A stretch of 64,000 nt of DNA from Euglena gracilis (lineage: Eukaryota), in NCBI GenBank assembly GCA_039621445.1, contig CP154954.1, forward strand, positions 11,774,716 through 11,838,715, written 5' to 3'. Shown piece by piece: positions 25,024 through 63,451 of the stretch. The translations under genes were made by a program, and so were the position numbers. Every line of letters starts with the position of its first letter. The stretch's first letter is position 1. The notes under the pieces are model-generated. The model was not told the origin of the DNA, did not search any database, and worked only from the letters and a program-made list of their open reading frames with translations.

Positions 25024-28000
25024 TAACTGAAAATAATTTTAAAACCTCCACCCAGCGCTTTACAGGGCGGTCCTCAGGCAAAAAAAAAACCTGTCCCCAT
25101 ACACTTCAAGCAAAAAAAAAGGATAAGGGGATTTTTGCTGGGGAAAATTTTTTGAAATTTTTTTTTGAAAAATGAATCCAAAATACATGCTTTTTTGATG
25201 GAAATCACATTTTTTCCCAAAAAAACCAGTATTTTAGGGCTGAAAATTGTTAGTTTTTAGAAGGCGGTCAAAAAAAAATGCAGGTCAAAAAAAAAGAGAC
25301 CAAATTTTGGAACATTCAAACTTTACTGACATTTTTTCTCTTAGAATTTTTTTGGATTTTCAGTGGCATTTTGTTTGCTTCCAAAAACTCTCAAAATCAA
25401 AATTTTGAGAAATGTTGAAATTTTAGAAGGTGTGAAAAAAAAATGGGGTTTGGGGGGTTTTGGGCAACATTTTGGGCAGTATTTTCACCAATTTCGGGAA
25501 AACGGGGATTTGGGCTGAAAAAAATTCTGAATTTTTTTAGAAGAATGAACCCAAAATACCGGGGGGGGGGGGGCATTGGGGCTGGATAAAATTAGAACCG
25601 ACAAAATTGGAAGCCAAAAAAATTGGTGTCAAACCTGAAAACGGCCCGGAAAATTTTGGCAGAATTTTTTATGTGAAAACGTCCAGTTATGGCAAGATTT
25701 CTTCTATGGCAACCAAAAAATTGGGGGGAAATGGTAAAAAATTGGCTGGATTTTCAAAAAAGGGCCAGAAAAAATTGGCAGGATTTTTGTACGCCAATTT
25801 TTTCTCGATCAATTTTTTCGGCCTCCAGTTCCCCCCACGGTACATGATTTTTGATGGAAAACTTCATTTCTTCACAAAAAAAACATCTCAAAGGTTTCAG
25901 GGTTAAATTTAGTAGTTTTTAGGAGGGGGTGGAAAATAACGAAGGTCAAAAAAAGTGGACCAAATTTTGGCACAGTCGAAATTTTACTGACATTTTTTTC
26001 ACTTGGAAATTTTTTGGATTTTCAATGGCTTTTTTGCTTCAAAAAAATCTCAAAACTAAATTTTTGAGAAAATGTTGAATTTTTGGAAGGTGGGAAAAAA
26101 TGGGGTTTTGAGGGGTTTTTGGGGGGACCTCCCATATGGGTCCCAAAATGGGTCAAAAAAAAAACCCCGCGCGCCGAGGTGCCGGAAAATTTTTCGGGTC
26201 CAATTTTTCGGGTTTCTGTGTATTTGGGGGGGGGGCGGTCCTTAAGGGGCGGTCCTTAGCTAAAAATAAAAAAAAAATCCCGTCCCTTATGGACCGCCAT
26301 GGCGCTTTACGGTATACTCTCGGAAGCGCAAGCAAAAAACGGTTACTTTCCAACTCCTTTCTATTTCTCAAATTCAGCACCCCTTCCACCTCTCCAGCTG
26401 GACAACGATTCCAATATTGGCAGTTGTGTGGTTTTCATGATAAGACGGAGCCGGTGGCAATCGATGGAGCCGCATGACCACCGCGGAGGCACGGGTGGCG
26501 CGGGCACCGCCGGGGTGAGCGGAGGGCTCCTGCCGAATGGACCGTGGGTCCCAACACTGCTGTCCGAGCTGGCGGGGCTGGAGGGAGTGGGATGTGCCAG
26601 GCGAGGCCAGGGTCGTACTGGAATGGCAGCCTGCCTCTGGCATTCTGACATGCACACGGAACAATTTTTATCGCTGTTCCGCGTTCTTATTGTTCCGACA
26701 GCAAGCACTCAACCTATCTCAGATCTTGCGAATTTAGGCTGGAAGAATGCCAATGGGGGGAACCCTAAACCTAACCAATCCCCTGCCCCATGTGGGAATA
26801 AACATTTGGTGCAAAAAAACAAACACGAAAAATGATTCCTTTTACAGGTGGTAATAATATATACAAAAATCCTCAAACAGTGGTACATCAGCGGGTAAAT
26901 CCCACCAATGAAAACACTCATAGGATAATTGGTGAAACCAATCTGCATTCGGATTGACCGGTATGAGGAGAGCTCCGCGATGAGGCGAAGTTGGATTGGG
27001 GCCATGGGTTAGAAAGGGGCCATGCCGCGAAAGCAGCATTGTGGCGAGTCTTCCGATGTCTTGTCCCATCAAGCAGTGACGGTTCACGCCTGACCATCGT
27101 TGGTTGACCACTTTCCAATGGGGAATGTGAAATGGTCTGGAATCCATGAAACGCAGGTTTTTTTTAATTTGCAGTGATATTCATGTACGTCCTCCCCCCC
27201 CAAGCCGAATGGACACCAAAATGAAATCTAGAGAATTAGGCAAACTCTTTGAGCGTGAGTATATGGGCATTTTCATTGCTGCAAAAGCTAACAAACTGGA
27301 GGTCCACACCCCTTGTTCATTGGGCAAGGGGGTTCATTACAAATGGGGGGGAGGGGTAAGCACCTAAAAACGCAAACAGGGAGTCAATGGACAGACAACC
27401 ACAAACAAAGCACCCTCTGTTACCACAGGCAAAGACATGTTAGGGTCAAAGCGGTCGCAGTGCAACGAATGAGGTGGGAAGGAAGAAAGCGTTCTCTAAC
27501 TATACTCCAGCAAGCAGGGCGGAACGGAAATGAATTTTGAAGACCTTGGTCAGATTGTAGGTGCAAAGGTTCAGGACCAATGCAGCCGAATCGAGTGCCA
27601 ATGCGAAAAACCAGCGTGATGGGACAATTTGAAATAAAATAAAAAATCAACACCCGTAATCAAAAACCAAACACATAAATTCACACAAACAAAAACGCGC
27701 GCAGGCACGCATACCTATTGCATTATGCCTTGGGATACCTGGGGATCCGAAAACTAGCCACTAGAAAAGCCACTAGCTGGACCCCTCTCTCCTGGGAGGT
27801 CCAGGGTCCGGGGCCCCCCAGGTACCCCAACTGGAAAACTCACCCCAACTAGCTGCTCGCCCAGGTGGAAATGGGTTTTTGTGTGTTGTTTTGGCTGTTT
27901 TTTTTTCCAGGAAAAATACCAAAAATTGCAAATTGGGTATGTTTGGCAGGTTTTGGGGGTCAAATAAAAAGTTTCCGGTGCTTTGTGCCAGTCACTTGTG

Positions 28001-29224
28001 GAAAAAAAAACACCACCTGGCCTGCAAGCGGAACCCCTGGGGGGTCCAAACCAAGTTTGGACTAGCTGCAGTCGACACCCCCCAGAGTTGTACTGTGAGT
28101 CCTTTTGAAGAACCCTGGTCTCGACGTTTTCTCGACACCCAAAAACCCCCCATTCAACGACCATAAATGTTTGCCTCTGACCAGGGAGGCGGTCGCTAAA
28201 ACTTTTTTTTATCTCTGACCAGGAGGGGGGTCGACCAGATTATGAAATGGGCAGGCAGGGGGGGGGGTTGGTCTGGACACCCCCGGGGGGGGGGGGGGTT
28301 GGACTCCCTCCTGGGGGAAAGAAGCGCCGGAAATTTTTGGGACTTGAAAAAGGCCCTAAAAATGCGTTTTCGCGTATTTTTTTTGAAAAATAGGCCAAAC
28401 CGTACACGAGAAAATAGAACAAAAAAGCCATTTTTGGTGTTTGGGGTGCCGGACGCCACGGTCCCGGTCCCGTTTCCAGTCCCCCATCAGTCTGAAGAGG
28501 GGAGGGAGGTGGTCTGGAACCCCCTGTAAACCGCCCCCAATAACACCCCCCCCCCGGTGTGTTATTTGGGCACCCGAACTGGGACCCCGGGGGGGGGGGG
28601 GGGGGTTATTTGGGGGGTGCTATTTTTACATGGAAAACCAAAGAAAAACAGGGGGGTGTTATTTGGGCGCTCGAAATCGGCCCCCAAGGGGGGGGGGTGT
28701 TATTTGGGGGGGGTGCTATTTGGGGGGGTGTTATTTGGAGGGGTTTACAAAACCAACACTCACTTAAACATCCCCCCCGAAAATAAGACTTGGGTGTTGT
28801 TTTCGGGTCTGTTGTTGGAAACCTCCAGGTGGGTCTTATATTTGGAGTTTGGAGATGTGGTAAATGTCAAATTGCGACAAATTTACAAATTTATTTACAA
28901 AAAAGTAACAAAAATTTGCACATGGCGCAAAGTACTGAAAGAAAATTTTAGTGTTTTTGGGTACCTGAAAAATAATGTTTATTTGGGCCCCGATAGGCCT
29001 TTTGCACTTCAAAGATCCTAGAATTTCTTTGAAACACCATCATTTTTGTGTCTAGAATTGAATGGGGTTCGGTGGTCCCAGGAACCCTTTCTAGTTGGCT
29101 AGCAAAATGGACCCCCAGGCAGGTATAGATGGGAAGCCTTTCAGTTTTGAGTTAGGCGGGGGGTCCAAACCCCCCCTGGGGGCTACACGTGACGTGGTAG
29201 CCCCCCCTCCCCGGATGTTGGGAG

Positions 29225-30158
29225 CAAGCACCTCTGGTCACCAATGCCCTTGGGCCCAGCATCGCCCAGCATCGCCCAGCATCGCCTTTGAAGCCCTTGG
29301 AGGTGTACCTCTTGACCCACATTCACTCAGATACCTGCCTCCAGAGCATCCACTATAGCACTAGCATACACTTCATCCACTTTTATCCACATTTACCCAC
29401 TTGTACAACTTTTGGCCATTCTTGGCCAATTTGGCCACTTTTGGCCACAGGGCCACTTTTGACCATTTCACATTGTCTAGTGCCTGCATCTTGTCCAGTA
29501 TCTGCACCTTTGTCAAGCATCTGCATCTTGTCCACCATCTTCATCTTTTCCAGTGCCTGCATCTTGTCCAGTATCCGCATCTTGTCCACCATCTGCATCT
29601 TGTCCAGTATCCTCATCCAGCATGTTGTCCAGTGTCCGCATCTTGTCCAATATCCACATCTTGTCCAATATTTGCATCTTGCCGAATGTCGCATCCATTG
29701 GCTCCCAACCTATCCAAAATGACCACAAACGCCCCAAAAACAATCACAAAAGCCCAAAAGGCCCCAAAAAAGCAACCAAATGACCTAAAATAGCTTGAAA
29801 TAAACAAAATAGGCGAAAAAAAATGCCCCCAATGTCCACAAAAGATCTTGAAAAATAACTGGCATAATATGACCAAAAATGCCATTAACGTGCTCATTAT
29901 ACCAAATTAGCTCAATGTTTGCCCAAATCAATGCAAAAATAGCCGGCAAAACAGCAAAAATTATTTCAAAATGGCCAACATAGGAGTAGTATTGGAGGTT
30001 TGTGGGAAAGTTATCCTAAAAGTGGTTTAATTCTTCAAAATATACAAAAAATGCCAGCATCGCCCAGCATCGCCCTGCATCGCCCAGCATCGGACCCCCA
30101 CCTCTGGTCCGAAAATCCAGCATCGCCCAGCATCGCCCAGCATCATCAGAGGTGCTTG
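29225..30158. mobile_element. 934-bp non-autonomous hAT-type element
   Basis: 12-bp TIR CAAGCACCTCTG/CAGAGGTGCTTG and perfect 8-bp TSD GTTGGGAG (29217-24, 30159-66). Subterminal GCATCGCCCA arrays and an internal 18-bp tandem repeat (~29480-29690). Confidence 0.9.
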
Positions 30159-30184
30159 GTTGGGAGGGGTGTCCGGACCCCCGC

Positions 30185-30590
30185 CAGGCATTTGCTTAAG
30201 GCCCCCGGGGGGGGGGGGACTGGCTAGCCAATCGGCTAGACACTGGAAAAAATGGACTAGCTAGAACCCCCCTCCCCCCCCCAGGGGGGGGGGGGTCCGG
30301 GGGTCCCCCGAACTGGAAAAATGAGGTTTTTAATAGGTTTTTGGCTGATTTTGTTCCAGAAATTGCCAAAAATGGCCAAAAACGGGCATTTTTGGCCATT
30401 TTTGGGGGTCCCAAAAATTTTTCGGCGCTTCGGTCACTGGAAAAAAAAATTCCACTAGCTAGCCCTGCTAGCAGACCCCCCCGGGGGGGGGGGGGTCTGC
30501 TAGAAATCCCACCAGCCAAATTTGGACTAGCTGCAGTCCAGCCCCCCCGGGGGGGGGGGGGGGGAGTGCAATCTCTTAAGCAAATGCCCG
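30185..30590. mobile_element. 406-bp hAT-type MITE
   Basis: TIR CAGGCATTTGCTTAAG / CTTAAGCAAATGCC(C)G; the copy A right end near 4775-4790 reads ...GCCTG. 8-bp flanks ACCCCCGC and ACCCCCAC. Confidence 0.8.
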
Positions 30591-32297
30591 ACCCCCACCC
30601 ACCCCCTACTTGGCAGGTTTCAAAAGATGCGAAAAGTTTTCCTCTGGTTCTACACCCGACGTGGGTCTTATTTGGGGGGTCTTATATTTAAATTTTTGCT
30701 CGATCGCAGGGGTGGGGAATTGACATTGGAGGCCTTTGGATAAATTGCAGGAAAAATTGCCGGGAAATTGCAGGAATTGCGGAAATTCGGTTTTGGGATT
30801 TAATGTACTTCTGCTGGAGAGGACATTAGAAAATTTTACAAATTTGGTCATTTTGCAACATACATGGAAATTTTGAGCCGGAAATCACATCTTTCCACCA
30901 AGAAGGTCCAAAAACACCACTTTTGGTATTTTGGTTGGTGGCAAGCTGGTCCTTGGCTGGGAATTCATTTGGTGAAAAATAACAAAAAAACGGCAAAAAC
31001 TGACGAAAAGTTTGGTCTCAGGTAAAATCTGATCCAGGATGCGGAGTTTTTCTTGTCGCAATTATTTCCCAGCAGATATTGGGGGGGGGGGACCTGAAAA
31101 GACCCAGAAATCGCCAATTTTGTAAATTTTAGAAATTTCGGCAAATTTGCAACAAAATAACAAAAAATCACCTCGGTTCCCTTGTAGAACGTTCAAGGAA
31201 TGGCCGGAACTCATTGTGGAAGGGGAAAAAATTGCGAAATTGCGGGAAAATTGCGGAAAATTACGGAAATTGTGGAATAAAAAAAAAATGCGGAAATCAA
31301 TCCCCTCCTGTCGATAGGCCCAGCATGGGGTTTTATTTTGGGGTCTCATTTTTGGAGGGTCTTATTTGGGGGGGGGGTTAATACCCTGGGGTTCACAGCC
31401 AAGTGGAGGGAAGGGGAGCCCAGATCGGCGAAAACTTCGCCACGTGTGAACTTCCCCTCTTCGCATGGGCGCATGGCCTGGGCCACGATTGAAGGGAAAG
31501 CCGGGGGGGGGCAACCTTAAGGGGCCAAATTTGTATGTTTTTAGTGGGCCAGATGCAAAATAAGCCAAAAACCTTAAAAAAGGGAGGAAAGCTTTAGGGG
31601 GGGGCAAGGTTGTATGTGAGGAGGGGGGGGGGTAGCAAGCGCCTGGGATTTTTTGTTCATTTTCAGAGTAATTTCATGGCTTCGGCCGTTTTTGACCGTT
31701 TGAGGGTAATTTTTTGAACAGTTTGTCATTTCTAGCCACTTTTAGCAACCGTTGGCTATTTTGTGGCAAAGCTTGCACAATTAAAAGCTGCTTTTAAAAA
31801 TCTACGTCAATTTTGGACATTTTGAATAAATGTGTGACCCTGTTTCCTCGTCATATTGAATTTTTCAGCGTTGTATTGTGATATTTTCCATTTTTTTCGT
31901 TCATTTTACCATTTTTTATTATTATTAGCAAAAAAAAGCAAAAAAATGTTTACATATTTATGGAGCCAACGTATCCAGAAAGATTGCATCGGACCAGAAG
32001 AGGGGGAGGTCGTTGCACAGAACCCTGCCCATCCTCTTGAATCCATTTCAACAATTCTTCATTTTCAGAAGGTCTTCACTTACATGATTTGCGAGTTAAC
32101 AAATCGACCACAGATACGCACACGTCGCCGAAGCTACATTATGTAAACCAGGAAAGCTGCTTTTTTCGGCAAGAACGTACGTACAGAGAGTGGTCCAGTG
32201 CTCCATTGGTGTGCTTCTGACAATGCGGGCTTGGGTGGGCGTGCATCCAGAAAACTGTCAGCAGCAGCACAACAGGAACTAACGTGTTGTTCCTGTA

Positions 32298-41100: not shown

Positions 41101-43916
41101 GATCAGTTGGGTTTTGGCTGTTGGACCTCCACTGAACTTCCCCACCCCAAGGGGGTCAAGTCAGCACCTTTTCCCAGTTGGACTGCGGACCCCCCCCCTC
41201 TGGGGGAAGGTCCTTAAATCCTGAGGTTGTGACAAACAACACCAGACGAAATATCTGCCCCAAAAGCTAAATTTGCCTCGCCAACATGGCAGCGAAATGG
41301 ACAGCGACAGGAGGCTCAAATCCTTCCCAACGATAACCACAGCCACCCCCCCCCTTCATGCGACCAATGGTTTGCACCAACGACCAGGGACATTGTACTC
41401 AGGACACGATTGCCACAGCAGCAAACCTGGTTGTCTTGTGATTCAAGGGGGCAGCCCTCGTCAGAGGGTTCTGCTGTGAAATGGGGGGGCTCCTCAAGAA
41501 GGGGGGCTATCTGTCGCGTGGCATTCAATTCGGCAATTGAACCCGTTTGGCACACACAATTGCACTGTCGTAACAAAGCCTGATTGAGAGCCTGAAAAAA
41601 AAAACAAAGCTGGAAAAAAACTTTGCAGTGTGCAAGAAAAAAGTGCAAGGTTTATCTGTACTGAAAACGGTCCTTGACTTGCTTCTCCGACAGTTGGTAT
41701 GTGTCATCACAAGCAATATTGTAAATAGTCAATTGCCAAATCACGTTTGTTATTTGAGAAAAAAATAATTTAACTGAAAATAATTTTAAAACCTCCACCC
41801 AGCGCTTTACAGGGCGGTCCTTAAGCAAAAAAAAAATCCTGTCCCCATACACTTCAACCAAAAAATAAGGATAAGGGGATTTTGGCTGGGGAAAATTTTT
41901 GAAAATTTTTTTTGAAAAATGAACCCAAAATACATGGTTTTTTGATGGAAATCACATTTTTTCCCAAAAAATCACCAAAATTTTAGGGCTGAAAATGTTA
42001 GTTTTTAGGAAGGCGGTCAAAAAAAAATGCAGGTCAAAAAAAATGGGACCAAATTTTGGAACATTCAAATTTTACTGACATTTTTTCCCTTTGAAATTTT
42101 TTTGGATTTTCAGTGGCATTTTTTTTTTGCTTACAAAAACTCTCAAATCAAAATTTTGAGAAATGTTGAAATTTTAGAAGGTTTGAAAAAAATGGGGTTT
42201 GTTTGGGGGGTTTTGGGCAGTATTTTCACCAATTTCGGGAAAACGGGGATTTGGGCTGAAGAATTTCTGAATTTTTTTGAAAAATGAACCCAAAATATCA
42301 GGGGGGGGGGGAATTGGGGCTGGATAAAATTAGAACCGACAAAATTGGAAGCCAAAAAATTAGGTGTCAAACCTGAAAACGGCCCGGAAAAAATTGGCAG
42401 AATTTTTTATGTGAAAACGTCCAGTTATGGCAAGATTTCTTCCATGGCAACCAAAAAATTGGGGGAAAATGGTAAAAAATTGGCAGGATTTTCAAAAAAG
42501 GGCCGGAAAAAATTGGCAGGATTTCTGTACGCCAATTTTTTCTCACTCAATTTTTTCGGCCTCCAGTTCCCCCCACGGTACATGATTTTTTGATGGAAAA
42601 CCTCATTTCTTCACAAAAAAAACATCTCAAAGGTTTCAGGGTTAAATTTAGTAGTTTTTAGGAGGGGGTGGAAAATAACGAAGGTCAAAAAAAAGTGGAC
42701 CAAATTTTGGCACAGTCGAAATTTTACTGACATTTTTTCTCTTGGAAATTTTTTGGGTTTTCAATGGCTTTTTTGCTTCAAAAAAAATCTCAAAACTAAA
42801 TTTTTGAGAAAATGTTGAATTTTTGGAAGGTGTGAAAAAATGGGGTTTTGAGGGGTTTTTGGGGGGACCTCCCATATGGGTCCCAAAATGGGTCAAAAAA
42901 AACACCGCGTGCCGAGGTGCCGGAAAATTTTTCGGGTCCAATTTTTCGGGTTTCTGTGTATTGGGGGGGGGGGTCCTTAAGGGGCGGTCCTTAGCTAAAA
43001 ATAAAAAAAATCCCGTCCTTTATGGACCGCCCTGGCGCTTTACGGTATACTCTCGGAAGCGCAAGCAAAAAAACGGTTACTTTCCAATTCCTTTCTATTT
43101 CTCAAATTCAGCACCCCTTCCACCTCTCCAGCTGGACAACGATTCCAATATTGGCAGTTGTGTGGTTTTCATAATAAGACGGAGCCGGTGGCAATCGATG
43201 GAGCCGCATGACCACCGCGGAGGCACGGGTGGCGTGGGCACCGCCGGGGTGAGCGGAGGGCTCCTGCCGAATGGACCGTGGGTCCCAACACTGCTGTCCG
43301 AGCTGGTGGGGCTGGAGGGAGTGGGATGTGCCAGGCGAGGCCAGGGTCGTACTGGAATGGCAGCCTGCCTCTGGCATTCTGACATGCACACGGAACAATT
43401 TTTATCACTGTTCCGCGTTCTTATTGTTCCGATAGCAAGCGCTCAACCTATCTCAGATCTTGCGAATTTAGGCCGGAAGAATGCCAATGGGGGGAACCCT
43501 AAACCTAACCAATCCCCTGCCCTAACTAAACAAAACTGCCCTAACTCCTAACTAATCCTGACCAATCCCCTACCCCATGTGGGAATAAACATTTGGTGCA
43601 GTTCATACGCAGCTTTCATAACTGTCCAGAATCATACACAGAAAACTCAAACTTGAGAATTGCAACGCTAACTTTATCCTTCAATGAATCTAAGACTTAG
43701 TTGGGGGCACAAAATTCACCCCACCTTGTAGTTATGAATTAACTCTACCAATCATCAACGTCATGCAGTGGAACAACAAATTTGAGGAAATATCAAGGAA
43801 AAAAGTATTGAAATAACAAGGAGAAAAAGCCTGAAATTAAACGAAAATGTGCATATCAATATTTTTTGAAAACAATTATCAAACGATGAACCTCCTAAAT
43901 TATATTGCCCCCCGAA

Positions 43917-44799: not shown

Positions 44800-44845
<46 letters not shown>
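44800..44845 (+). repeat. (GA)n microsatellite
   Basis: Perfect GA run. Others at 45491-45584, 46805-46856 and 49433-49454. Confidence 0.98.
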
Positions 44846-45588
<743 letters not shown>

Positions 45589-45635
45589 TTAAGTTGTTGA
45601 ACATACACCCATAATGAAAATAAAGTGGAATACAG

Positions 45636-46799: not shown

Positions 46800-46856
<57 letters not shown>
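45636..46856 (+). mobile_element. (GA)n-tailed non-coding retroelement: 285-bp partial copy plus 892-bp full monomer, flanked by a 51-bp duplication
   Basis: 45636-45920 matches 46528-46812 (period 892 bp). A 3' stem-loop CTCTTTTACCGC-TGTGT-GCGGAAAGAG precedes (GA)n. An identical 51-bp GGAGTTAAG...GGAATACAG lies at 45585-45635 and 46857-46907. Confidence 0.75.
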
Positions 46857-46860
<4 letters not shown>

Positions 46861-47915
46861 TTAAGTTGTTGAACATACACCCATAATGAAAATAAAGTGG
46901 AATACAGAATAATGAAAAAAATAATTGTAAAATTGATACAAAACTCAACAAGCGTGTTTTGGCTTGGAGGCTTGGAGTTCGAATGGCAGTAAATGCACCT
47001 TAGCTATCTGCAAAAGCCCTGCCGACTCGGACGGCCAACTGGCGGTGATGGGATTGCAAAAGCTTCAGCAGCCCCAGGCCACTGTGCAAATGTGGCTCCT
47101 CACATGGCTCCAATAGCTCCTTGGTTCATTCCGAATTTGATGTTCTAGACAAAACAATTTACCGGAGGTTGAGAAAGGTATGTCAACATAAAATAATCAT
47201 GATTCAGAAAAAAAAATACAATGACACTTGTGTTGTTCTCATACATTTTTTTGGCCTTCTGGGCTCTGTTGTCACACAACGGGCCAGACTTTTTACTCTT
47301 TTGTCACAATATTTTGAATATTCGTTAAATTCAATTACTTTGACTTTTTTAATGTCTTCAGCCACATCGTAAACCTGTGTCCACATTCCAGAGAATTTCT
47401 TAAACTGGACCCCCCCCCCCCCGCCTGGGTCCAGCGAGCCAGGCGCCAGCCCGGGGGGGGGGGGGCGGCCGGACGGACCCACCCTACCCCCCCCAGGGTC
47501 CACGACTAAAAAAAAGCCCTGGCACCACCGCGTGCACCGCATGGTGCCACAGGTGCACTATGTGCCACACCCCATGCCACTATCATCTTCAACCACCGCA
47601 ACTGGCAAAAAAAATGGCTAAAAAGGGTTCAAAATTGAAATATTGTTAAAAATGAAAAACAGCCGCCTCAAAGTGACCAACAGTGGCATGGAAAAAAAAA
47701 TGGTTCAAATGGGAAACGACACCAAATAAAGCAAAAAAAAACAAAAATTGGCAACAAGTAGCGGAAAATGAAACAAGGAGGTTACAGGCGGCGAAAGGTG
47801 GCCAAAATGAAGGGGAAAAAATCCAAGGAACGTTGGAAAAACTTCCCACGTGGTGCACACGCTGCGCCACGCGGTGCACGTGGTGTGGCAGCATCCCCCC
47901 TGGTCGTAACCTCAC

Positions 47916-50900: not shown

Positions 50901-51268
50901 GGTTTGGGCAGTCGCTGGGGGGGCAGCATGGGTTTATTTTTCGAGTCGCGGGCCGGTGTCGCAAACCCGAGAGGGACAAGCCGCCGACGGGGTAAAAAAA
51001 AAGTGTCCGTCAGCAGCAGTGTGCTGGGGTACAAACCGTGAGAGACCGCTGCCGACGGGACGACTAAAAGCAAGTGGTCGGCCGGGGTTTCAAACCCGAG
51101 AAATGGAGTCAGACAGACACGTTCAAAGTTCGCGTTCAGTCAAAATCGGCCAAGACCCTTAAGTGCCACTTTGGCCGTCTAAGTGAAATAGATATGCATA
51201 TACATATATATAGACACATGCAAATGTAGATATGTTTATGCGGCAGCCATTGGCTCATTGGCTATACG

Positions 51269-52126
51269 CAGGATCCTCACATGTCCGTGCTGGCCGAGGC
51301 CAAAATGTATCCGTGATTTTCCGTGATTTTCCTGTTCAAAAGCCACATTCCATTCTGCATCGAAGCCATGTTTGGGCAGTTGTGGCAGCAGATTGTTTCT
51401 CCAAATTACAGTCCTGGAGATCCTCCAGGGCCTCGACAACAGCTGAAGCCAATTCATACCCAAGTTTGGCCCTTTGCAACCCAACTGAACCATGCTTCAA
51501 CCTAGATCTTCCCTTGCATACCCAACAAAATGTTTATGGTCGCATGCCCAGAACTGTCAATACATTCATCAGTTCCTATCCACACTGGATATGAAAATAA
51601 AAAAATGTACAGGAGGGGGGGGAAACCTTTTGTCCTTGAATTTTTTTCTTGATTGCCCCAAAATGGGTTGCAAAACCCTGTCAGCGGACCGATGTCACGA
51701 TTGACCCTTCTGGATGCAGCCTGGGCAGAAAGGGAAGGTCATTTTCTGAATAAGCAAAAACCCACACGCCCTCGATTTGTGTGTATTTCTGGAGAACATC
51801 GCTGATGCTTTCGTGGTCCAATTTTGTGACCGGGAGACCAGAATGGAGGAAAGCGGCCACAAAAGAATCTGTGATTGTCTGAATGAGGCTTTGCTCTCGT
51901 GATTGTCTGTTTGGAAAAGCAGAGAATGTGCAAAACATCCCATCAAAAATGCATCTGCACGAAGAAAGCACATTCCAAAAAGACCCAAAAAAATTTCCGA
52001 ACCCTCCGCCTCATCCGTAAATTTCCGTGAATTTCCGTGATTTCCGTGAAAATGGCCTGCCGCCCATTTCCGTGAACCTCCGTGAATTTCCGTGAATTTC
52101 CTTTTCAGGACGTGTGAGGATCCCTG
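51269..52126 (-). mobile_element. Internally deleted hAT transposon retaining transposase fragments
   Basis: TIR CAGG(G)ATCCTCACAYGTCC at both ends. Direct repeat GCTATACGC at 51261-69 and 52126-34, consistent with an 8-bp TSD. Subterminal TTTCCGTGA repeats. Confidence 0.85.
51340..51900 (-). pseudogene. hAT transposase remnant (CGGBP1/DUF659-like region and first catalytic Asp)
   Basis: FVAAFLHSGLPVTKLDHESISDVLQKYTQIEG (~51770-51865), then PVWIGTDECIDSSGHATINILLG (DE at 51565-51570), followed by an in-frame stop. Confidence 0.7.
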
Positions 52127-53981
52127 CTATACGCCCCATCCAGGGGGGGGGGGTCATATTACCAATCCAGGGGGTCGCATAAAAATTTGGGTGATTGACG
52201 GAACAGGGTTAGGGTTAGGAGTTAGGCCGAACTTTAGGCCTAACTGATAGAGAAGCGTTAGGTGTACAAGTTAGGCCAAAAGTGATTTAGCAGGATTCCT
52301 GCCCCTAACCCTGCTCCATTAATAACGCAAAAAAATTTTGACCCCTGAAATGTTTACACACCGCATAATTTGAGCCCCATAATTTGGGGGCGTTTGAAGT
52401 TGGCTCCTGCTGGGAACCTGCACCCCAAAGAGCCACCCAATTAGGCCAATACACATGGGGGGACCCTCGCTCGGCGTCTTCGGCGCCTCGCTCATGTCCC
52501 CCCACGTTTGTTTTTTAACCCTAGTTGGGCGGCTGTTTGGGTTTGCTGAGTACCCAATAGAGGCTACCCCCCCCCCCAATGACGGGGCAGTGCTCTTTGA
52601 GTGGGCAGTGCCCAAGTAACGGGGCAGGGGGCAGGCCGAAAAAGATGGTTCCAACGGGGCACCCTCAGTTTTTTGTTTTTTTTTTGGTCCAAGAGGTTAA
52701 CGACGACGAAAATATTGCGCAACACTTGCCTGCCGCGAGTGCTTCACAGCAGGTTTTGGGGGGGAGGGACAGAAGAGACGGATGGTGCAAGCGGAATCAG
52801 GGATGGGTCGAAATCATATTCAAGGTCTCGGATCTCAGGTTTGGAACACTCGTCGTTCTTCCCATGATGATGGGCAGTGCCCAAATAACGGGGCAGGGGG
52901 AAGGTCAAAAAGATGATGCCAGTAACGGGGCACCCCACCCTGTTATTTGGGGGGTTTAGCTTATCAACGATGAGCAGGACAGGATCAACTGTTTGCAGTA
53001 GAACCTTAACCCGAAACCTATTCCCTCAAATACCTCATGAAATCGTTCTTCTGATCATTTTTTGCAGTTTTGTGAAGCGATAAATGAGGTGGTAACCTGG
53101 AGGAGGCGCCCCTTCAATCGTGACCTGGCGACTGAAGATCAGGTTAGGGGCCTCCTTGGAGGACCGGAGAGAAGCCTCCCTGGAGCCTGGTTACCTGGAG
53201 CCTCCAGGGAGCCTCCTCAGAGCCTTCAAAATGGCAGGTAACCATTTTTGCGGTAGACCCCCCGGACTGGGCTAAATTATTTTTTTACTTGGAAGAGTCC
53301 CCTCCATGAAGAAATGGGGGAGGGGGGTGGATGGGTGGGTCCAGGCCGGGCAGGGGGGGACCAGGAGGTTCAAGTTTTCGGGAAATGCCCTTAAATGGCC
53401 CGATTTTTGGCGGGTCCCCTTGGGGCGGGTGGCCAACCCGGGCCTTGAGAAGAAGCCTGTTTTGGACCCGCACAACCTCATGGCGCGATTCCGACCCACC
53501 GCTAGGGACTGCCCCTCAGAGGTTCGTTTTTGATACAGTTCGCCCAGGATCTGCCCACATCTTGATTTGGCCAACTCTTGGGGTTCTGGGTACTAAAATT
53601 CCTCCTCTGGCCAGACCTCTTTCTAGATGAACAGGCGCTCCCATATCTATACCCATATTTATACAATATGAACATACACACACATATACATACATACATA
53701 CACACGCACCTAAATATATAGTATATATATGTATATATGTTTACATGTATGGCAGCCAATGTGTGTATGTACAAATGGCAGCCATTGGTTATACGACCCC
53801 CAGGGGTCAGAGCACAATTTAAAGCCGAACTTGACAGGGCTAAGTTTGTTCCATTGGGAGAGGGAGGACATTATGGGTCCCGCATTCCTGGGGAGGGGGT
53901 CGCCCCCCCCCAGGCGCTGGGGGTATAAACCAGACTGAGTTGCTCCCAAAATGCACTAAGGTATATCAAGGTCCCGTGCGC

Positions 53982-57063: not shown

Positions 57064-60000
57064 TCATGGCACACAGCCCCCGGGGCACTCGCACTCGCCC
57101 CCAAGGAAGATCGGTGGCAGGAGGCACCAGAAGCCACAAAAACTGTTGGAAATTTTCAAACAGAAATATTTGTGTATAAAATATTACCAAATGTAGACTA
57201 CAAGAAAAAAAATCATTCAAAAATGAATTAGCCTGTCATATGTCATATTTTCTTATCGTATTAAAATGAATGTGGTATAAAAAAAAATCAAATTATATAA
57301 ATCAAAAAAAAAGTTAAACAGACTTTAAGCCGAAGGGGTGATCAGGTAACCGACGGTTTATTTTAAGCTTCTGGAAAAAAATAAGGGTTACGGCGAGAGT
57401 TCAAGTGAGTATTAATCAGATGGTAGACAAAAATTACGGCAAAAAAGAATATCGTAAAATAGTCTCGGAAAATTTTGAACCTGAAAAAAAAATGGGTTTT
57501 TGCAACAAAAAAAAATTAATCAACCGTTTTTTGTCAAGCCCCCCTGTTTTTTCATTGCGGCACTGAACAAAATCCGGCTATTTTGCCTCAAAAATGCCAC
57601 AAAAGGTAAATCTTTGCCAAAATAGATATTTTTTGTTATTTTCGGGCCATTTTCAACCATTTTCCATCCATTTTTTTGTCACTTTGGGCTGAAACTTCAT
57701 GCCAGAGGGTGAAACTGGTTAGAAAGAATACTAAAAATAACTACTAAAACTACACTGTTATGGTGAAATTATGGTATTTGACCAAAATTTTTGATTTCCA
57801 CAATTCCCCCCCCCAATTTTGCCCACCCTGTAAGATTTAGGCATTTAGTCTGTAAACTTTCCTGTTTTCACCGCATCCCTGAACCTCAAAGCTCAAAGTG
57901 ACACATGGCTGGGTCTTCAAGCAGAAAAAGAATATCATGGCTTACAGATTTTGTCCAGCTCATTAAGAAAAGCTCACCGAGCAACAGATGTACGCAACAT
58001 CACATTATATGATACAAATCGATTAATTTCCTGTGTTTTCTTAATGAAATGGTTAAACAGCGTATGTGACCTTTAAATTACTATGATTATTTAAAAGCAA
58101 TAGTGTCTTCTTACAGAAGGATGACTCCGAGTTTTGTTTCTCAATTGTGGAGGCAAAGATAGCAATCCCTCCAGGTGGACAGTTAAGAGACTCTGTGGTA
58201 GCACCAACAAGCTGGTGATTGGGATGGAGGTGTTCCATATGGCAACAGTGTGGAGGCAGTCTGGCCAAAAGGGTGCCTCCTGAGAGGCAACTGGGCGGGA
58301 GCAATGACCTTCTCGAGGGCCGGGTGGTAGTTGCTGCCCAGGATGCGCACCTTTTCCCGCGTCCGCTGGTCGAGAAGGGGGCTGATAATGTTGTGGGCAG
58401 TGCTCCGCAAAATAAAAGTTGCAACAGTTGAAGACAAACAAGAAAGGGAACAAACATATGGTACAAAACCGCAAGTTTGCCCACGCTGCATTCATGAAAA
58501 AAAATATTAACCGTTGAACAGAAGGCATGCATCAAAGCAATTGGTGGTCTCCAATTCTCTTGGTTTTGTTGATCGAAATGGAAAAAGCACATGAACATCA
58601 ACTCGTCTTTCGGAAAGTGCGGCACCAGGCACTTTGACAGGTTGAGGGTTTCTCGTGTTGTCAGTTGAGTGGAAATGGAACACAGGGGACCACTGGGCCC
58701 ACGCCACCGTCACGATGCTCGGGGCATTAACGACGAAGGCGTGGCAGGTCGTCTCGGCCGCCACCGCCCCCGCTGAGGTCCGAGGGGTCCCGACAAAGTT
58801 GTCGTCCAGCGACCCAGAGAGCGCTGCACAGGAAGGCCTGGGGGGGGGGTCGACCCCCCCACCCACCACAGCATTTTCACGGGTTTTGTTTAACAAATCC
58901 ACCTGGAAAAAATTTTGGGGTCGGAAATTGGTGATCCCGCAAGGACGGGAGGTGGTGGGGGGGTGGGGGAATGGTCGGTCTCCCCACTCATCCACCCTGG
59001 CTGTTTGGCCGATTCCCATCCTGCCCTGGCCCAGACATCCCCGCCCCCAACTGACATAGACGTCTGCCAGCAGGGTCAATGAGAGAGGAATTGGGCCGAG
59101 AGGGTGCCCCAGAGGCAGTCTTCTCTTAGCGAGGTGGCGAATCGGGTAGTGCCGCTTGTCATTCTCAATGATCGCTTTGAGGGCTGCAACAAAAGCAGTA
59201 TGGTGGGCACGCGCGGCAGGTCACAAGGAAACAAAGGGAAACCCCAAAGCCAAAACGACGACGGAGGTTCAAGACAGGCACTGACTTCTTCACAGTTTTG
59301 ATTCTGAATGAAGAGTAGCAACATGCCTCCAAAACTTGTGGAAAAAAACACGTACAAAAATGGCCCCCGCAACCGATTTTGTATGCTCTGTGACCCTCTG
59401 GTTCTAAAAACCCAAATGAGAACCCCGCCTGATGACTTGCAAATAATGTGCTGCACAAATAATAAAAAATAGGCCTCCCTCCACACAATAGTGAAGGCAA
59501 ACGAAGCCAAGAGGACAAATGACCCCCAAAAAAACATCGGGAGAATCAGTAAAAATTGATGCAATTTGGCCAGAGTAAGCATAATAAAAAGAGCTTCTAT
59601 TTTGCAAAACAGCTCAAAGAGCAAAAAAAAAAAGGCTTGGGGACCCGGAGCTCTTGTGGAGCTCTTTTGGGGCATTTCGCCCAAATTCTAACCCACCCCT
59701 CAAATAATAAAGCCACCAGACTCCGACTTCAGGTCAGGGCATTGCTGAAGGACCTCGGAGGGGGGGAAATTTCCAAAATGGTTCAAAGAGCAAATAAAGA
59801 GGTGGCCTTGTTCCAATTTGTCTGCAACTGCCTGGTGAATGCCACACCCACAATTTAATTCAAAGTTAATTCAATGTGACAGAGGGGGGAAGAAAAAAAT
59901 AAATATAGGGTGGAAAAGGTATCACACCGGAGAAAATTGGCTGGTGGAGGTGGGACAGCTTGTATCCTTTGAGGTCCAGCACGTATGTGAACTGGAAGAT

Positions 60001-63000
60001 GGGCCGATCTGACAGACAGATGTGTGTGGTCAATTTGGAGGTGTTCTCAGTCACTGGTCATCCAATCCAAGCAATCCAACCAACTGCAATGGTTGTCTAT
60101 AGATGAAAGAATTAATTTTAATTGATTTTTGGAGGGGCTGGAAATGCACATGGCAAATTGCCATGTCAATTGCAATGGGAAATAGCTCATGATTTGTGAG
60201 AGCATTTCCAGACACAGTCGGTTTACAATGATAATAGTTCCAAATATTTGCACACCGTGATTCCATGATGAGACGTTTCGTGTGGTCAGAATCGATGTCA
60301 GTCAAATGCGGCTGTTGTAGGAATAAATGTTCGGAGTTGTGTTGGAGAAAAAGGGGGAGAGGAAAGAAACGTTCCAGAGACACTTGGGGCCGGGACATAC
60401 GGAGCTTTGCCGTCTGCAGCTTGGTGAGGTGCAGCCCCAGCTCCATCGACAGCAGGTGCCCGTGCAGGATTTCCTCCTCGAAGCTGGTGCCCGTACCGCG
60501 CTCCTTGGCGGCCTCCTTGCCGATCCGCACCATGGCGCGGGGGCTGGGGCCGGCCAGGGAAAAACACGGGTGGGGGTCGTTGGGGGCGGTTATGCAAGTA
60601 GCTCTCGGGGGACGCTGACACATGGTGTGCGGCACACTATGCACACGGTGCCACACACCGTGCCACACCGTGCCACGCACCGTGGCACGCCGTGCCACGC
60701 ACGGTGTCACGACGTGCCACCGTGCCACACCATGCCACACACCGTGCCACACCATGCCACACACCGTGCCACACGCCGTGCACACTTTGCACGCTGTGCG
60801 TCTTTCGATGAAATTTGACCCCAAAATAAATTTTTTGACAATATTCCATGGTCGAATTTTTTTAAAGAGTAGGCCATGAAAGACGCACGGTGTGCACAAT
60901 GTGTGGTACCCGACACTGGGGGTCTTAACATATTCACGATTCGAAGCCAGGGGAAAAATAAAACCAATATCATCCATGAGGGGAACATCCCTTTTTCAAC
61001 AAAAAAATGGCAAATCAAAAAATCAGGCACAGGTCAGTGGGGACAAGGGCAGGTGACAGGTTCATATGAGGACAGGTTAGCAAGTACAGAGGGCAGAGGT
61101 TAGAGGGCAGAGGACAGTTTCCCAGGCAGCGCATTCCCCTGGGGCGCATTTCCCTGGGGGGGCTGTTGAGAACCCCGGGGGTCCACTCGCTAGGCATTGG
61201 AAAAAGCTACTACCTGGACCACCTGGGGGTCCCCTGACTGGAAAAATTATTCCAGCGCTACGTGTTTCTAATGTGCCTTTTTGGCTGATTTCATTCCAGA
61301 AATTCTGGCGTCACTGTGAACCTTTAGCAGAAGCCGGGAAAACTGTGCGTGTCAGCGTCCCCTCTGTCGTATATATGTGTGCATATATGTATGTACGTAC
61401 CATGGACATTGCTCAAAAAAAAATGGGTGTTCACATCACCATCAGGTGTGTTTGAGTATGATACAACCCCGGGAGAGGATCGGGAGAGGTAGGTTAGGGG
61501 GGTGGCATGGAATGGGGGCATGGTAACATTAGCAGTTGGAAGCTTGGGATTCAGGTAGGGTTTTGGTTTGATGTGGGTTCAGGGTATGCTGAAGTTTGGA
61601 TTGGGTCAGCCAAAGGTGAGACTTCTTCGAGGGAGCGACCCTGCTTACAGTGATGCCTTGCAGAATGGACTAAAACCGGTTTCAAAATGCGAGAAGACCG
61701 TATTCCAATGGAAATCAATATGTCGGGTTGTCTTGGGAAAGAAACAGAAAACGGATGGCACCGGCTGTGTGGGGGTGGGGGTGGGGGTCTGCCGAGCCCA
61801 AGGTGAGGATCGGAGTAGCCGGTCCGCTCGATGAACACCGGGTTGCCCTCCCGGTCCCACATGTGCCATGTGCCGTGGTACACCTGGCAAGCAAGCACAC
61901 ATGGAGCGGTGATAGCGGCAGAACAGGCAAGGCTTACACACACACAACTTGTGTTTCCATCACCCACTTCAACTCCAAAACCCTGGACGTTCAGGGGGGT
62001 CGTTGGCAAGCGCTGCCAAACAATCCGTTGGGCGGACCTTCTGGATCTGCTGCAGGAAGCGGTCGGTCACCGGGTCGCTCCGCAACTCCCGGCCGTACAG
62101 GTCGCTGTGGGGGTCCAGGTGGTAGCCCCGGGAGAAGCCGTCGGGGGCACGTCCTTGCACCCGAAATCAGATGGCAGGGTTGCTTCCGACTTCCTTTCAC
62201 TCGCTTTTGGGCACGAGACATTTCTTTGCCAAATGGCAGGTCACGGCAACTTGGCCAAAAAAAAATGCCAGGTAGTGGCCAGCGGTGGGTGTGGAACACA
62301 GGAACTCCTCACGATACGCAAAAAAATACAAAACGGTGCAAAAGCGAAAAATACAAAAACTGCCAGTGTTCCCGACAGGGATGTTCCACTGGGGTCGGGC
62401 AACATCCACTGTACAGTCTGAAGTGAAAGGTCATGTTCAAACAGAGCTGGTGTGGCCCTCAAGCCCCCCCCCCCCCCCGCGGGGTGGAAGAAGAGGTGGT
62501 GCAGTGGTGTGGGTGGGCGCCGGGAGGAAGGGCAGCGTGTCCATCTTGTTCTCCGCCCGCCATGCCAGCGTCCTGTGGACAACATTGGGGTGGGTTTGGG
62601 GACCCCGGGGAGATCAACCCAAACACCAGCAACAGCCCGGCAGCCCAAACCCAACCAGCACATCCCGCCACTCTGGGGCTTGAAATTTCACGGAGGGATG
62701 CACACAACCACAGCAACCTCCCAAAAAATGCCACGGTTGGAGCCTTGGGCTGTAACTTACAACCACCCATTCTCCCCCCCTAACTGATGAAATACCACCT
62801 CAGCCTAACAAGCCAACAGACAGCATACAACAGACCACCCCTCCCTGGTGAGGGTAAAGAAAGGAGCCTTGTGACTGGTTGTTTCTCTTTCTTTTGCGAA
62901 AAAAACCCCAGAAACAGACTTGTTGCAACTTTTGTGTGCGAACTCTTGCAAACTATCATCAGGATTGTCATTTTGGGGGGATTGGGGTATATTTGGGGTC

Positions 63001-63451
63001 AAAGAGGGTAACCCTGGGTGCATTTTGGGGTTTTTTGAGGTGTCGAATTTTGACAAACAATCCTTGACTGATAATGTGGTGGCCAAGGAGGTTGCCGAAG
63101 GAAATAACAAAAGATGAAAGCTGAATAGGAATTAGTATGGAATAAATATCCAGAATATGGAAGGAAGGAAGTGAATGGTGGACGAAAGGAAGCACTTCTA
63201 ATTCGGTTGTGCTAATATCAAACCTGTATCAACTCGGAGAATGCACATTTTGGCGCTTGGGGGGGGGTTCGTCTTTTGGGGTGTTCGTCCGGCGCTGTAT
63301 GTCTGGGCCAAGGATTAGCACACACCGGCCCAGCATGCGGCTCGCGCGGTCGATGTCCCAGGAGCGGGCGCCAAGGTAGCGCCGGAACACAGTGTGCCGG
63401 AACGTGGCGTCCTGCAGGAACTTCGGCAGGGGGTCTACCCCGACGCAGTGC
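57064..63451 (-). CDS. Sec14-like CRAL-TRIO lipid-binding protein, 5'-partial, 10 exons in the window
   Basis: Exons 63451-63326, 62572-~62514, ~62162-62038, 61883-~61810, 60543-60401, 60008-59928, 59183-59143, 58755-58699, 58392-58286 and 57112-57064. They join to give FRRYLGARSWD..ML..TLAWR, DREGNPVFIERTG, VLDLKG, HYPET..FVVNAP..W.IISPLLD.RT.EKV and LPIFLGGECECPGGC*. Confidence 0.93.
57113..58285 (-). other. Euglenid nonconventional intron (1173 nt)
   Basis: tctCAGGAGGCACC ... GGTGCCTCCTGccacc forms an 11-bp terminal stem with CAG at +4..+6 and CTG at -8..-6. Removal restores QLP-IFLGG. Confidence 0.9.
58393..58698 (-). other. Euglenid nonconventional intron (306 nt)
   Basis: gccCAGTGgTCC ... 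GGAgCACTGcccac, with the same CAG/CTG register. Removal restores VAW-NIISPLLD. Confidence 0.9.
58756..59142 (-). other. Non-GT-AG intron (387 nt) with terminal complementarity
   Basis: attCGCCACCtcgct ... agcggggg-cGGTGGCGgcc. Removal restores HYP-ETT. The junction can slide by 1-2 nt. Confidence 0.8.
60620..60790. repeat. Degenerate GTGCCACACC tandem repeat within a Sec14 intron
   Basis: Multiple 10-12-nt units of (CC)GTGCCAC(AC). Confidence 0.7.

What the first reader, a model, noticed from the sequence alone, without database searches (positions are those of the whole stretch)
57113..58698. Nonconventional intron geometry (3 nt + CAG...CTG + 5 nt) equals a hAT insertion plus one 8-bp TSD
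Seen: both clear nonconventional introns have 3 nt before the CAG-initiated stem and 5 nt after the closing CTG, 8 nt in total. The same window holds hAT-type elements whose TIRs begin CAG and that have 8-bp TSDs (30185-30590, 51269-52126). Inference: removing such an element with 3 nt of the left TSD and 5 nt of the right TSD would restore the original mRNA exactly. CAG-ended hAT MITEs could therefore be the source of these introns. A MITE-like origin has been suggested in general terms; the 3+5=8 match is my inference. Caveat: these two introns show no surviving TSD (TTGCCTCT vs CCACCGAT; CGTGGGCC vs CCCACAAC).
Basis: inference. Interest (0 to 1): 0.75.

Follow-up and report, generated by a model that had tools for sequence, protein, structure and literature searches.

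The report
Euglena nonconventional introns beside hAT-like transposons
The region holds two ordinary Euglena "nonconventional" introns whose 3+5-nucleotide cutting geometry adds up to the 8-base duplication made by hAT-like mobile elements lying in the same window, a suggestive and testable link that these two introns do not themselves prove.

Summary
The window is Euglena gracilis nuclear DNA. Coordinates 57113-58698 (minus strand) are the last two introns of a CRAL-TRIO/Sec14-like gene (EG_transcript_14713) and the 107-nt exon between them.

Both introns are 3 nt + CAG...CTG + 5 nt followed by a purine. For the 306-nt intron this is the only protein-compatible solution. For the 1173-nt intron it is one of five.

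This is exactly the published, experimentally tested splicing code, so the feature itself is known. Only 2 of the gene's 5 non-GT-AG introns fit it.

The window also holds CAG- or CAA-ended inverted-repeat elements with 8-bp duplications.

The two introns show no surviving duplication (2/8 and 3/8, chance level). They match nothing else in the window, and no hAT transposase is present.

Published facts support the 8 = 3+5 idea. A recently gained intron has 8-nt direct repeats, and both junctions share a pyrimidine|purine consensus although the donor side has no functional requirement.

I found no paper naming hAT or the 8-bp equivalence. Verdict: observation confirmed, interpretation plausible but unproven.

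The parts
57113..58285 (-). Nonconventional intron (last intron, 1173 nt) of the CRAL-TRIO gene: 3-nt spacer, CAG-initiated helix, CTG, 5-nt spacer. GC content 0.36.
   Evidence: One search gives 5 protein-compatible registers, and this one fits the code. One search shows the 11-bp helix at register 3/5. In one search the helix closes both the MFE and centroid folds.
57118..57128 (-). 3' arm of the terminal helix of the 1173-nt intron. It pairs with 58272-58282.
   Evidence: 11 of 11 complementary.
58272..58282 (-). 5' arm (CAG-initiated) of the terminal helix of the 1173-nt intron.
58286..58392 (-). 107-nt coding exon (residues 269-304 of P0002), part of the CRAL/TRIO domain.
   Evidence: Pfam CRAL_TRIO hit on the ORF containing it.
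58393..58698 (-). Nonconventional intron (306 nt): 3-nt spacer, CAG...CTG helix (8 of 9 pairs), 5-nt spacer. The downstream exon starts with A.
   Evidence: One search gives a single protein-compatible solution. See, and where the helix appears in both the MFE and centroid folds.
57064..57112 (-). Last coding exon with the TGA stop (residues 305-319).
58699..58755 (-). Upstream coding exon (residues 250-268).
41802..43042 (.). hAT-like non-autonomous element at 41810-43034 (1225 bp, GC 0.37). It has an 11-bp perfect CAG inverted repeat and a perfect 8-bp duplication at 41802-41809 and 43035-43042.
   Evidence: In one search it is the only 8/8 flank match among 181 CAG...CTG candidates, with 0 of 724 control comparisons at 8/8.
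25055..26309 (.). Copy of the same insertion in the other unit of the segmental duplication (25063-26301). It has the same 8-bp flanks and 93.7% identity. Its right end is mutated (CAT instead of CAG in the reverse complement).
51261..52134 (.). hAT-like element at 51269-52126 (858 bp). Its CAGG inverted repeat of about 18 nt has one indel. It carries repeated subterminal motifs. The direct repeat is 7 bp at these borders and 8 bp with a 1-nt shift.
30177..30598 (.). hAT-like element at 30185-30590 (406 bp). Its 16-nt inverted repeat has a mismatch at position 2, and its flanks match 7/8.
29217..30166 (.). Inverted-repeat element at 29225-30158 (934 bp). It has 12/12 terminal repeats starting CAAG, subterminal 10-mer repeats, and a perfect 8-bp duplication.

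Best explanation
Coordinates 57113-58698 hold two ordinary euglenid nonconventional introns and the exon between them, at the 3' end of a Euglena gracilis CRAL-TRIO/Sec14-like gene on the minus strand.

SHOWN HERE. Both introns are absent from the transcript-derived protein. Both carry the N3-CAG ... CTG-N5 | purine signature. In both, a terminal helix brings the junctions together.

FROM THE LITERATURE. This signature is the experimentally defined noncanonical splicing code of Euglena. The CAG/CTG bases, the strict 3-nt donor spacer, the 5-6-nt acceptor spacer and the adjacent pairing are each required. Fully synthetic 50-bp sequences with only these features are spliced. Excision follows spliceosomal splicing and yields circular RNA, by machinery that is still unknown.

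INFERRED. The code removes the helix-bounded unit plus 8 nt. So any element with CAG...CTG ends that makes an 8-bp duplication would be cut out of an exon leaving exactly the original sequence. Such elements exist in this window. I rate at about 0.4 the chance that a substantial share of code-conforming introns began as hAT-like MITE insertions. These two introns are too old or too diverged to show it. The confidence value below refers to the identity and excision mechanism of the introns, not to their origin.
For: - The exon translation is 100% identical to EG_transcript_14713, which has a CRAL_TRIO domain.
- The junction solver gives a unique 3+5 solution for the 306-nt intron, and a 3+5 solution among 5 for the 1173-nt intron.
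- Helices are 11/11 and 8/9 bp and close the MFE and centroid folds.
- The downstream exons start with A and G.
- Code and mutagenesis: PMC12501133, passages and sections 5, 9 and 11.
- Positions +4..+6 and -8..-6: PMC4770533 and PMC11282704, passages.
- Element side: CAG- or CAA-ended inverted repeats with 8-bp duplications.
Against: - Only a protein, not the mRNA, was available. The register of the 1173-nt intron is therefore one of 5 compatible with the protein.
- The window copy differs from the transcript at one residue near position 239 (A against V), so it may be an allele or a paralogue.
- The overall fold energy of the 306-nt intron is not unusual (z = -0.93).
- An 11-bp CAG...CTG stem occurs 9 times in the window against about 2.5 expected, so the stem alone is weak evidence.
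- Against the origin inference: flanks match at 2/8 and 3/8, which is chance level.
- No intron shows similarity to any element.
- 3 of the 5 non-GT-AG introns of this gene lack the code. One of them has a strong 7-bp helix whose spacers sum to 6, not 8.
Confidence: 0.88

Rival explanations
1. Code-conforming nonconventional introns are former hAT-type MITE insertions. N3 and N5 are the inner 3 nt and the outer 5 nt of the two copies of the 8-bp duplication, so splicing restores the uninterrupted exon.
For: - The spacers sum to 8 and are experimentally fixed.
- CAG/CTG termini and short terminal pairing are needed for splicing. The same features are the ends of the window's elements with 8-bp duplications.
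- The only intron gain documented within a species has eight-nucleotide direct repeats at the junction.
- A Y|R consensus is found at both junctions, while the donor side has no nucleotide requirement. That is what a duplicated target cut at the same internal position would leave.
- By my arithmetic (71.8% of 649,158 introns, with 87,843 nonslidable nonconventional introns), about 81% of E. agilis nonconventional introns have junction repeats. itself states 84.4% for all introns.
- In both introns here, intron nucleotide +3 equals the third nucleotide of the downstream exon. That is 2 of 2, which is anecdotal.
Against: - No duplication survives in these introns (2/8 and 3/8).
- There is no similarity between the introns and the elements beyond CAGG.
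- There is no hAT transposase in the window, and I found no report of hAT in Euglena.
- No multi-copy intron families are reported in the passages I read, although hundreds of thousands of introns have been catalogued.
- Junction repeats are also abundant at conventional introns.
- The acceptor spacer tolerates 6 nt.
- The authors of the 8-nt repeat read it as double-strand-break repair.
- The best element here (41810-43034) would place a pyrimidine at the exon start on either strand, which the code disfavours.
Confidence: 0.4
2. Coincidence. The 3/5 spacing is a ruler of the unknown excision machinery. New introns arise by other routes, such as filler DNA at repaired breaks or conversion of conventional introns. 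The hAT-like elements are unrelated residents of the genome.
For: - The donor spacer is strict and the acceptor spacer is flexible (5-6 nt), which looks like an enzyme's measuring rule.
- Double-strand-break repair has been proposed for the 8-nt repeat.
- Geometry is heterogeneous within this one gene.
- The window shows break-repair-type insertions without inverted repeats. One example is the 174-bp copy at 17384-17557, flanked by a 4-bp repeat.
Against: This view must treat as unrelated the match in termini (CAG/CTG), the sum of 8, the 8-nt repeat in the young intron, and the mirrored Y|R consensus that has no donor-side requirement.
Confidence: 0.35
3. The introns derive from transposons, but from another superfamily that makes 8-bp duplications. 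Merlin is the candidate, being the only DNA transposon published for E. gracilis.
For: Two Merlin families with 8-bp duplications are reported in E. gracilis (PMC8101967, passages).
Against: All Merlin families, including those of E. gracilis, begin with GG. The introns and the window elements begin CAG or CAA. No DDE_Tnp_IS1595 hit was found in the window.
Confidence: 0.05
4. Reverse direction. The CAG-ended elements with 8-bp flanks are mobilised intron copies, for example circular intron RNA that was reverse-transcribed and reinserted, rather than transposase-driven elements.
For: Nonconventional introns are released as full-length circles (review passage). A non-LTR retroelement, and therefore a possible reverse-transcriptase source, lies in the window.
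Against: A reinserted circle would carry the source's own 3+5 nt rather than duplicate the target. The elements have subterminal repeat arrays typical of transposase-bound ends.
Confidence: 0.04

Closest known systems
Euglenid nonconventional introns, noncanonical splicing code 5'-N3 CDG ... CH'G N5-6 | R (PMC12501133; Milanowski et al., PMC3935182 and PMC4770533)
   Same: Both introns have non-GT-AG borders, CAG at +4..+6, CTG at -8..-6, adjacent base pairing and a purine at the start of the downstream exon. They sit in a gene that mixes conventional and nonconventional introns.
   Different: Nothing essential. They are new instances in a CRAL-TRIO gene. Three other non-GT-AG introns of the same gene fall outside the code, as do 38.8% of such introns in E. 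agilis.
Introner elements of Micromonas and Aureococcus, and the inverted-repeat introners of Amoebophrya (as described in PMC11282704 and PMC7789003)
   Same: The concept is the same. A short inverted-repeat transposon inserts in an exon and is removed at the RNA level together with one copy of its target duplication, restoring the message.
   Different: Those are multi-copy families with 3-5-nt duplications, and most are spliced by the spliceosome using a splice site supplied by the duplication. Here no family membership is seen, the putative duplication is 8 nt, and excision is by a structure-based, probably non-spliceosomal route.
hAT-superfamily non-autonomous elements (8-bp duplication, short inverted repeats starting CAG or TAG; these features are recalled, not taken from a call)
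   Same: The window elements at 41810-43034, 51269-52126 and 30185-30590 have CAG-type ends, 11-18-nt inverted repeats, 8-bp (or 7/8) duplications and subterminal repeats, and encode no protein. The introns share the CAG...CTG ends and the short terminal pairing.
   Different: No hAT transposase was found here or reported for Euglena in my searches. No empty site was seen. The introns have no duplication.
Maize Ds (a hAT element) spliced out of exons as a de novo intron (Giroux et al. 1994; seen only in the reference list of PMC3935182)
   Same: It is a precedent for a hAT-type insertion being removed from mRNA.
   Different: By recollection, Ds removal uses cryptic spliceosomal sites and is usually imprecise. 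The Euglena code would give exact restoration.

Membership tests
Euglenid nonconventional introns | Borders are not GT/GC-AG | tested here: met
   The 306-nt intron begins GC and ends AC. The 1173-nt intron in the code register begins TC and ends CC. None of its 5 registers gives GT-AG.
Euglenid nonconventional introns | CAG at +4..+6 and CTG at -8..-6 (3-nt and 5-6-nt spacers) | tested here: met
   Unique solution for the 306-nt intron, and one of 5 protein-compatible registers for the 1173-nt intron.
Euglenid nonconventional introns | Base pairing next to the CAG/CTG that brings the ends together | tested here: met
   11/11 and 8/9 pairs. Both helices are present in the MFE and centroid folds.
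Euglenid nonconventional introns | Purine at the first nucleotide of the downstream exon | tested here: met
   A and G.
Euglenid nonconventional introns | Absent from the mature transcript | tested here: met
   The transcript-derived protein P0002 runs across both junctions without a gap. No mRNA sequence was available.
Euglenid nonconventional introns | Released as circular RNA after conventional splicing, independently of U1 | not testable with these tools
   Known only from the literature.
hAT-derived MITE (applied to the two introns) | 8-bp target-site duplication abutting the inverted repeats | tested here: not met
   2/8 and 3/8 identity, which is chance level.
hAT-derived MITE (applied to the two introns) | Member of a repeated family that shares its inverted repeats with other copies | tested here: inconclusive
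   No other copy in the 64-kb window.
hAT-derived MITE (applied to the two introns) | Short terminal inverted repeats beginning CAG | tested here: met
   The same feature is required by the splicing code, so it does not discriminate.
hAT-like non-autonomous elements (window elements) | 8-bp target-site duplication | tested here: met
   8/8 at 41810-43034 and at 29225-30158. 7/8 at 30185-30590. A 7-bp repeat (8 with a 1-nt shift) at 51269-52126.
hAT-like non-autonomous elements (window elements) | Cognate hAT transposase (dimerisation and DDE domains) | tested here: not met
   0 of 241 ORFs of at least 90 aa hit any transposase family. The rest of the genome could not be searched.
hAT-like non-autonomous elements (window elements) | Evidence of mobility (an empty site) | tested here: inconclusive
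   Both units of the segmental duplication carry the 41810-type insertion with the same flanks. No empty site lies in the window.
Merlin superfamily | Inverted repeats begin with GG; 8-9-bp duplication | tested here: not met
   The elements begin CAG or CAA. The GG rule is from PMC8101967.
Introner elements | Many near-identical intron copies in one genome | tested here: inconclusive
   The introns match nothing else in the window.

The most novel reading that the evidence does not exclude
The Euglena noncanonical splicing code (N3-CAG ... CTG-N5) is the RNA-level mirror of hAT insertion geometry. It removes a CAG-ended element plus exactly one 8-bp target duplication, so hAT-type MITEs can land in exons without harm. 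Under this reading, the hundreds of thousands of nonconventional introns are largely their decayed descendants. The spacers and the donor-side Y|R consensus would then be relics of the duplication rather than splicing signals.
Probability: 0.4. Interest if true: 0.85.

Novelty: new member of a known kind. Interest (0 to 1): 0.55.

Why it matters
The origin of euglenid nonconventional introns, and the reason for their odd 3/5 spacing, have been open questions since the 1990s. A MITE origin has been proposed only in general terms.

Naming a superfamily and a length makes the question directly testable on the existing E. gracilis and E. agilis assemblies, and with the published knock-in splicing assay. 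Three tests follow:
- a step in flank identity at exactly 8 nt;
- shared inverted-repeat families between introns and intergenic elements;
- a hAT transposase in the genome.

If true, it would be a second, non-spliceosomal case of a genome neutralising transposon insertions at the RNA level. It would also explain why about 70% of introns in a Euglena genome are noncanonical. If false, the locus is simply two more textbook nonconventional introns.

Tried and rejected
1. Intron similarity. I ran BLAST of each non-GT-AG intron against the window. The 1173-, 306- and 372-nt introns hit nothing but themselves. The other two gave only 23-27-nt low-complexity matches. So there is no family evidence.
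2. Transposase search. I scanned 241 ORFs of at least 90 aa against Pfam. The only hits were CRAL_TRIO, a weak endonuclease hit in a retroelement, and a few sub-threshold low-complexity hits. ORFs shorter than 90 aa were not scanned.
3. More genes. A GC3 scan found no other gene-like ORFs, so the sample stays at one gene with 9 complete introns.
4. Empty sites. I compared the two units of the segmental duplication. The indels found are a retroelement, filler-type insertions and a C-run/G-run element. None is CAG-ended.
5. Weak helices. The 372- and 1266-nt introns have 5-6-bp helices containing GU pairs, with spacers summing to 8. I rejected these as evidence because that many pairs are expected by chance over the registers tried.
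6. Known RNAs. Rfam and tRNA scans of the window gave 0 hits.
7. Supplements. Whether that 8-nt repeat directly abuts CAG...CTG therefore stays unchecked.
8. Collections. The genome collection holds only bacteria and archaea and was not used.
9. Literature. Seven literature searches were run; six bear on this question and none found a paper linking these introns to hAT or to an 8-bp duplication. One search was swamped by unrelated uses of "mite" and "hat".
Full report
WHAT THE REGION IS

The window reads as Euglena nuclear DNA. Coding exons have a GC3 of 0.90 (280 codons), introns are AT-rich, and G and C runs are abundant.

The translation of one exon (60402-60533, minus strand) is 100% identical over 44 residues to eukprot EG_transcript_14713 (P0002, 319 aa). 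That protein has a CRAL/TRIO domain at residues 138-309 (E 5.5e-31).

tblastn placed residues 40-319 on the minus strand between 63453 and 57067.

I then enumerated, for each junction, every donor/acceptor pair whose joined translation reproduces the protein. The window holds nine complete introns of this gene.
- Four can be drawn as GT-AG: 62573-63325, 61884-62037, 60009-60400 and 59184-59927.
- Five cannot: about 62143-62521, about 60539-61809, 58756-59144, 58393-58698 and 57113-58285.

The finding's coordinates span the last two of these and the 107-nt exon between them (58286-58392).

CHECKING THE OBSERVATION: THE INTRONS

The 306-nt intron has a single protein-compatible solution. In it, three nucleotides precede CAG, five follow CTG, and the next exon starts with A.

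The 1173-nt intron has five protein-compatible registers. One gives three nucleotides, then CAG, then CTG, then five nucleotides, then an exon starting with G.

The helices are 11 of 11 and 8 of 9 pairs. Both close the minimum-energy and centroid folds of the entire introns.

Two cautions apply.
- The 306-nt intron is not unusually stable overall (z = -0.93).
- CAG...CTG stems of at least 11 bp within 6 kb occur 9 times in the window, against a mean of 2.55 in 20 shuffles. The stem matters because it coincides with the protein-defined junctions, not because it exists.

That is what chance gives.

CHECKING THE OBSERVATION: THE ELEMENTS

- 30185-30590 has a 16-nt inverted repeat with a mismatch at the second base, and 7/8 flanks.
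- 51269-52126 has an inverted repeat of about 18 nt with one indel. Its direct repeat is 7 bp at the stated borders, and 8 bp only if one border moves by one base.

The window holds better examples.
- 41810-43034 has an 11-bp perfect CAG repeat and a perfect 8-bp duplication. The same insertion, with the same flanks, lies in the other unit of a segmental duplication at 25063-26301.
- 29225-30158 has a 12/12 repeat beginning CAAG and a perfect 8-bp duplication.

Two controls support these.
- Among 181 CAG...CTG pairs with at least 11 of 14 terminal positions complementary, one had 8/8 flanks. None of 724 offset-control comparisons did.
- Requiring a perfect inverted repeat of at least 11 bp and an exact duplication, only length 8 gave elements. 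Lengths 3, 5-7 and 9-11 gave none, and the two length-4 hits are 59-bp hairpins.

The elements are non-coding and carry subterminal repeat arrays. They therefore look like hAT-type non-autonomous elements. That assignment rests on ends and duplication length only.
- No transposase domain was found in 241 ORFs of at least 90 aa.
- Merlin, the only DNA transposon reported for E. gracilis and also a maker of 8-bp duplications, is excluded because its ends begin with GG (PMC8101967, passages).

HOW THE INTRONS WORK

The geometry is not new. CAG at +4..+6 pairing with CTG at -8..-6 is the published hallmark of these introns (PMC4770533 and PMC11282704, passages).

A 2025 study defined the code by knock-in mutagenesis as 5'-N3 CDG ... 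CH'G N5-6 | R. I read its passages and sections 5, 9 and 11 (PMC12501133). It reports the following.
- Single substitutions in CAG or CTG abolish splicing.
- The donor spacer must be 3 nt.
- The acceptor spacer is 5 nt, with 6 tolerated.
- Adjacent pairing is needed.
- Artificial 50-bp sequences with only these features are spliced.
- The code fits 61.2% of the noncanonical introns of E. agilis.

In this gene it fits 2 of 5. One of the other three, 58756-59144, has a solid 7-bp helix whose spacers sum to 6. The remaining two have only chance-level helices.

THE INTERPRETATION

A MITE origin has been proposed since 2013 (PMC3935182). A 2024 review already labels CAG/CTG as terminal inverted repeats and speaks of TSD-like repeats at the junctions.

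What I did not find in print is the assignment to hAT, or the statement that the two spacers add up to one 8-bp duplication.
- The review has 0 occurrences of "hAT" or "8 bp".
- Searches combining Euglena or nonconventional introns with hAT, transposase, introner, DNA transposons or terminal inverted repeats returned nothing on the point.

The library does not cover most subscription journals, and supplements were closed.

Three published facts fit the idea.
- First, the only intron gain seen within a species (gapC intron 4 of E. agilis ACOI 323) has "eight nucleotide direct repeats" at the junction, longer than any other intron in that study. The authors read this as break repair.
- Second, the junction consensus is mirrored. 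[quoted passage not shown] Mutagenesis found a requirement only on the acceptor side. A target duplication cut at the same internal position on both sides would leave just this pattern. This is my inference.
- Third, 84.4% of all E. agilis introns have junction repeats. By my arithmetic from that call's figures, about 81% of the nonconventional ones do.

WHAT SPEAKS AGAINST IT

- These two introns carry no trace of a duplication.
- They share nothing with the elements beyond CAGG.
- No hAT transposase is known here.
- Junction repeats are also common at conventional introns.
- None of the passages I read reports families of similar introns, which young MITE-derived introns should form.
- The intact element at 41810-43034 would put a pyrimidine at the exon start on either strand, which the code disfavours.
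- A pure ruler of the excision machinery, with the sum of 8 being a coincidence, remains a serious rival.

VERDICT

The feature is a new instance of a known kind.

This locus cannot decide it. I put the inference at about 0.4.

The decisive analyses are genome-wide flank-identity profiles by intron age, family clustering with intergenic elements, a transposase search, and a knock-in of a CAG-ended element with its duplication.

Noticed in passing
window 12809-26788 and 30825-43522; also 2783-5037 and 26813-30837: Tandem segmental duplication of a unit of roughly 18 kb at 95-98% identity, with several indels between the copies. Most of the window outside the gene is made of these units.
   Followed up: partly
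window about 5038-12809: Insertion of about 7.8 kb present only in the first duplication unit. It is flanked by a 12-bp direct repeat, with the empty site in the second unit near 30826-30837. It contains long ORFs, one with a weak endonuclease/exonuclease/phosphatase hit (7702-8415), and ends in a CCAAA-type repeat. This looks like a non-LTR retroelement that inserted after the duplication.
   Followed up: partly
window 24795-25023 (empty site at 41771/41772); related pieces at 2231-2603: A 229-bp insertion present in one duplication unit and absent from the other. It begins with a C run, ends with a G run, and is flanked by TA. It is a second, non-hAT kind of inverted-repeat element with direct evidence of insertion. 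G/C-rich inverted ends are also what is described for diplonemid noncanonical introns.
   Followed up: partly
window 58756-59144 (minus strand): A non-GT-AG intron of the same gene with a strong 7-bp Watson-Crick terminal helix but no CAG/CTG. Its spacers sum to 6 (3+3 in one register). It lies outside the published code, so its excision rule is unexplained.
   Followed up: partly
window 497-579: An 83-bp unit with a 13-bp perfect CAGG-initiated inverted repeat enclosing three tandem 10-mers. The 8-nt flanks share only their first four bases. It could be a tiny MITE or an intron of an unannotated transcript.
   Followed up: no
window 57113-58698, both introns: In both introns the third spacer nucleotide (just before CAG) is the same base as the third nucleotide of the downstream exon. 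This position corresponds to the eighth base of a hypothetical duplication. The literature notes a conserved C at the third exon position. Two of two is anecdotal.
   Followed up: no
window 30185-30200 and 41810-41825: Two CAG-ended elements with otherwise different ends share the hexamer CTTAAG at positions 11-16 of their left terminal repeats. This may be a common binding motif.
   Followed up: no
window 17384-17557: A 174-bp segment present in only one duplication unit. It is a copy of sequence lying 1 kb downstream (18413-18590) and is flanked by a 4-bp repeat, without inverted repeats. It looks like filler DNA from break repair.
   Followed up: no
window 52186-52331: Short telomere-like GGGTTA/TAACCC units in inverted orientation, just downstream of the 51269-52126 element.
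   Followed up: no
window 44800-45590 and 46800-46910; whole window: Long GA/CT dinucleotide arrays. The window also holds 58 C runs and 93 G runs of at least 7 nt, which produce many spurious inverted repeats.
   Followed up: no
window about 59173-59175 (minus strand): The window encodes alanine where the transcript-derived protein has valine (residue 239). The window copy may be an allele or a close paralogue of the sequenced transcript.
   Followed up: no
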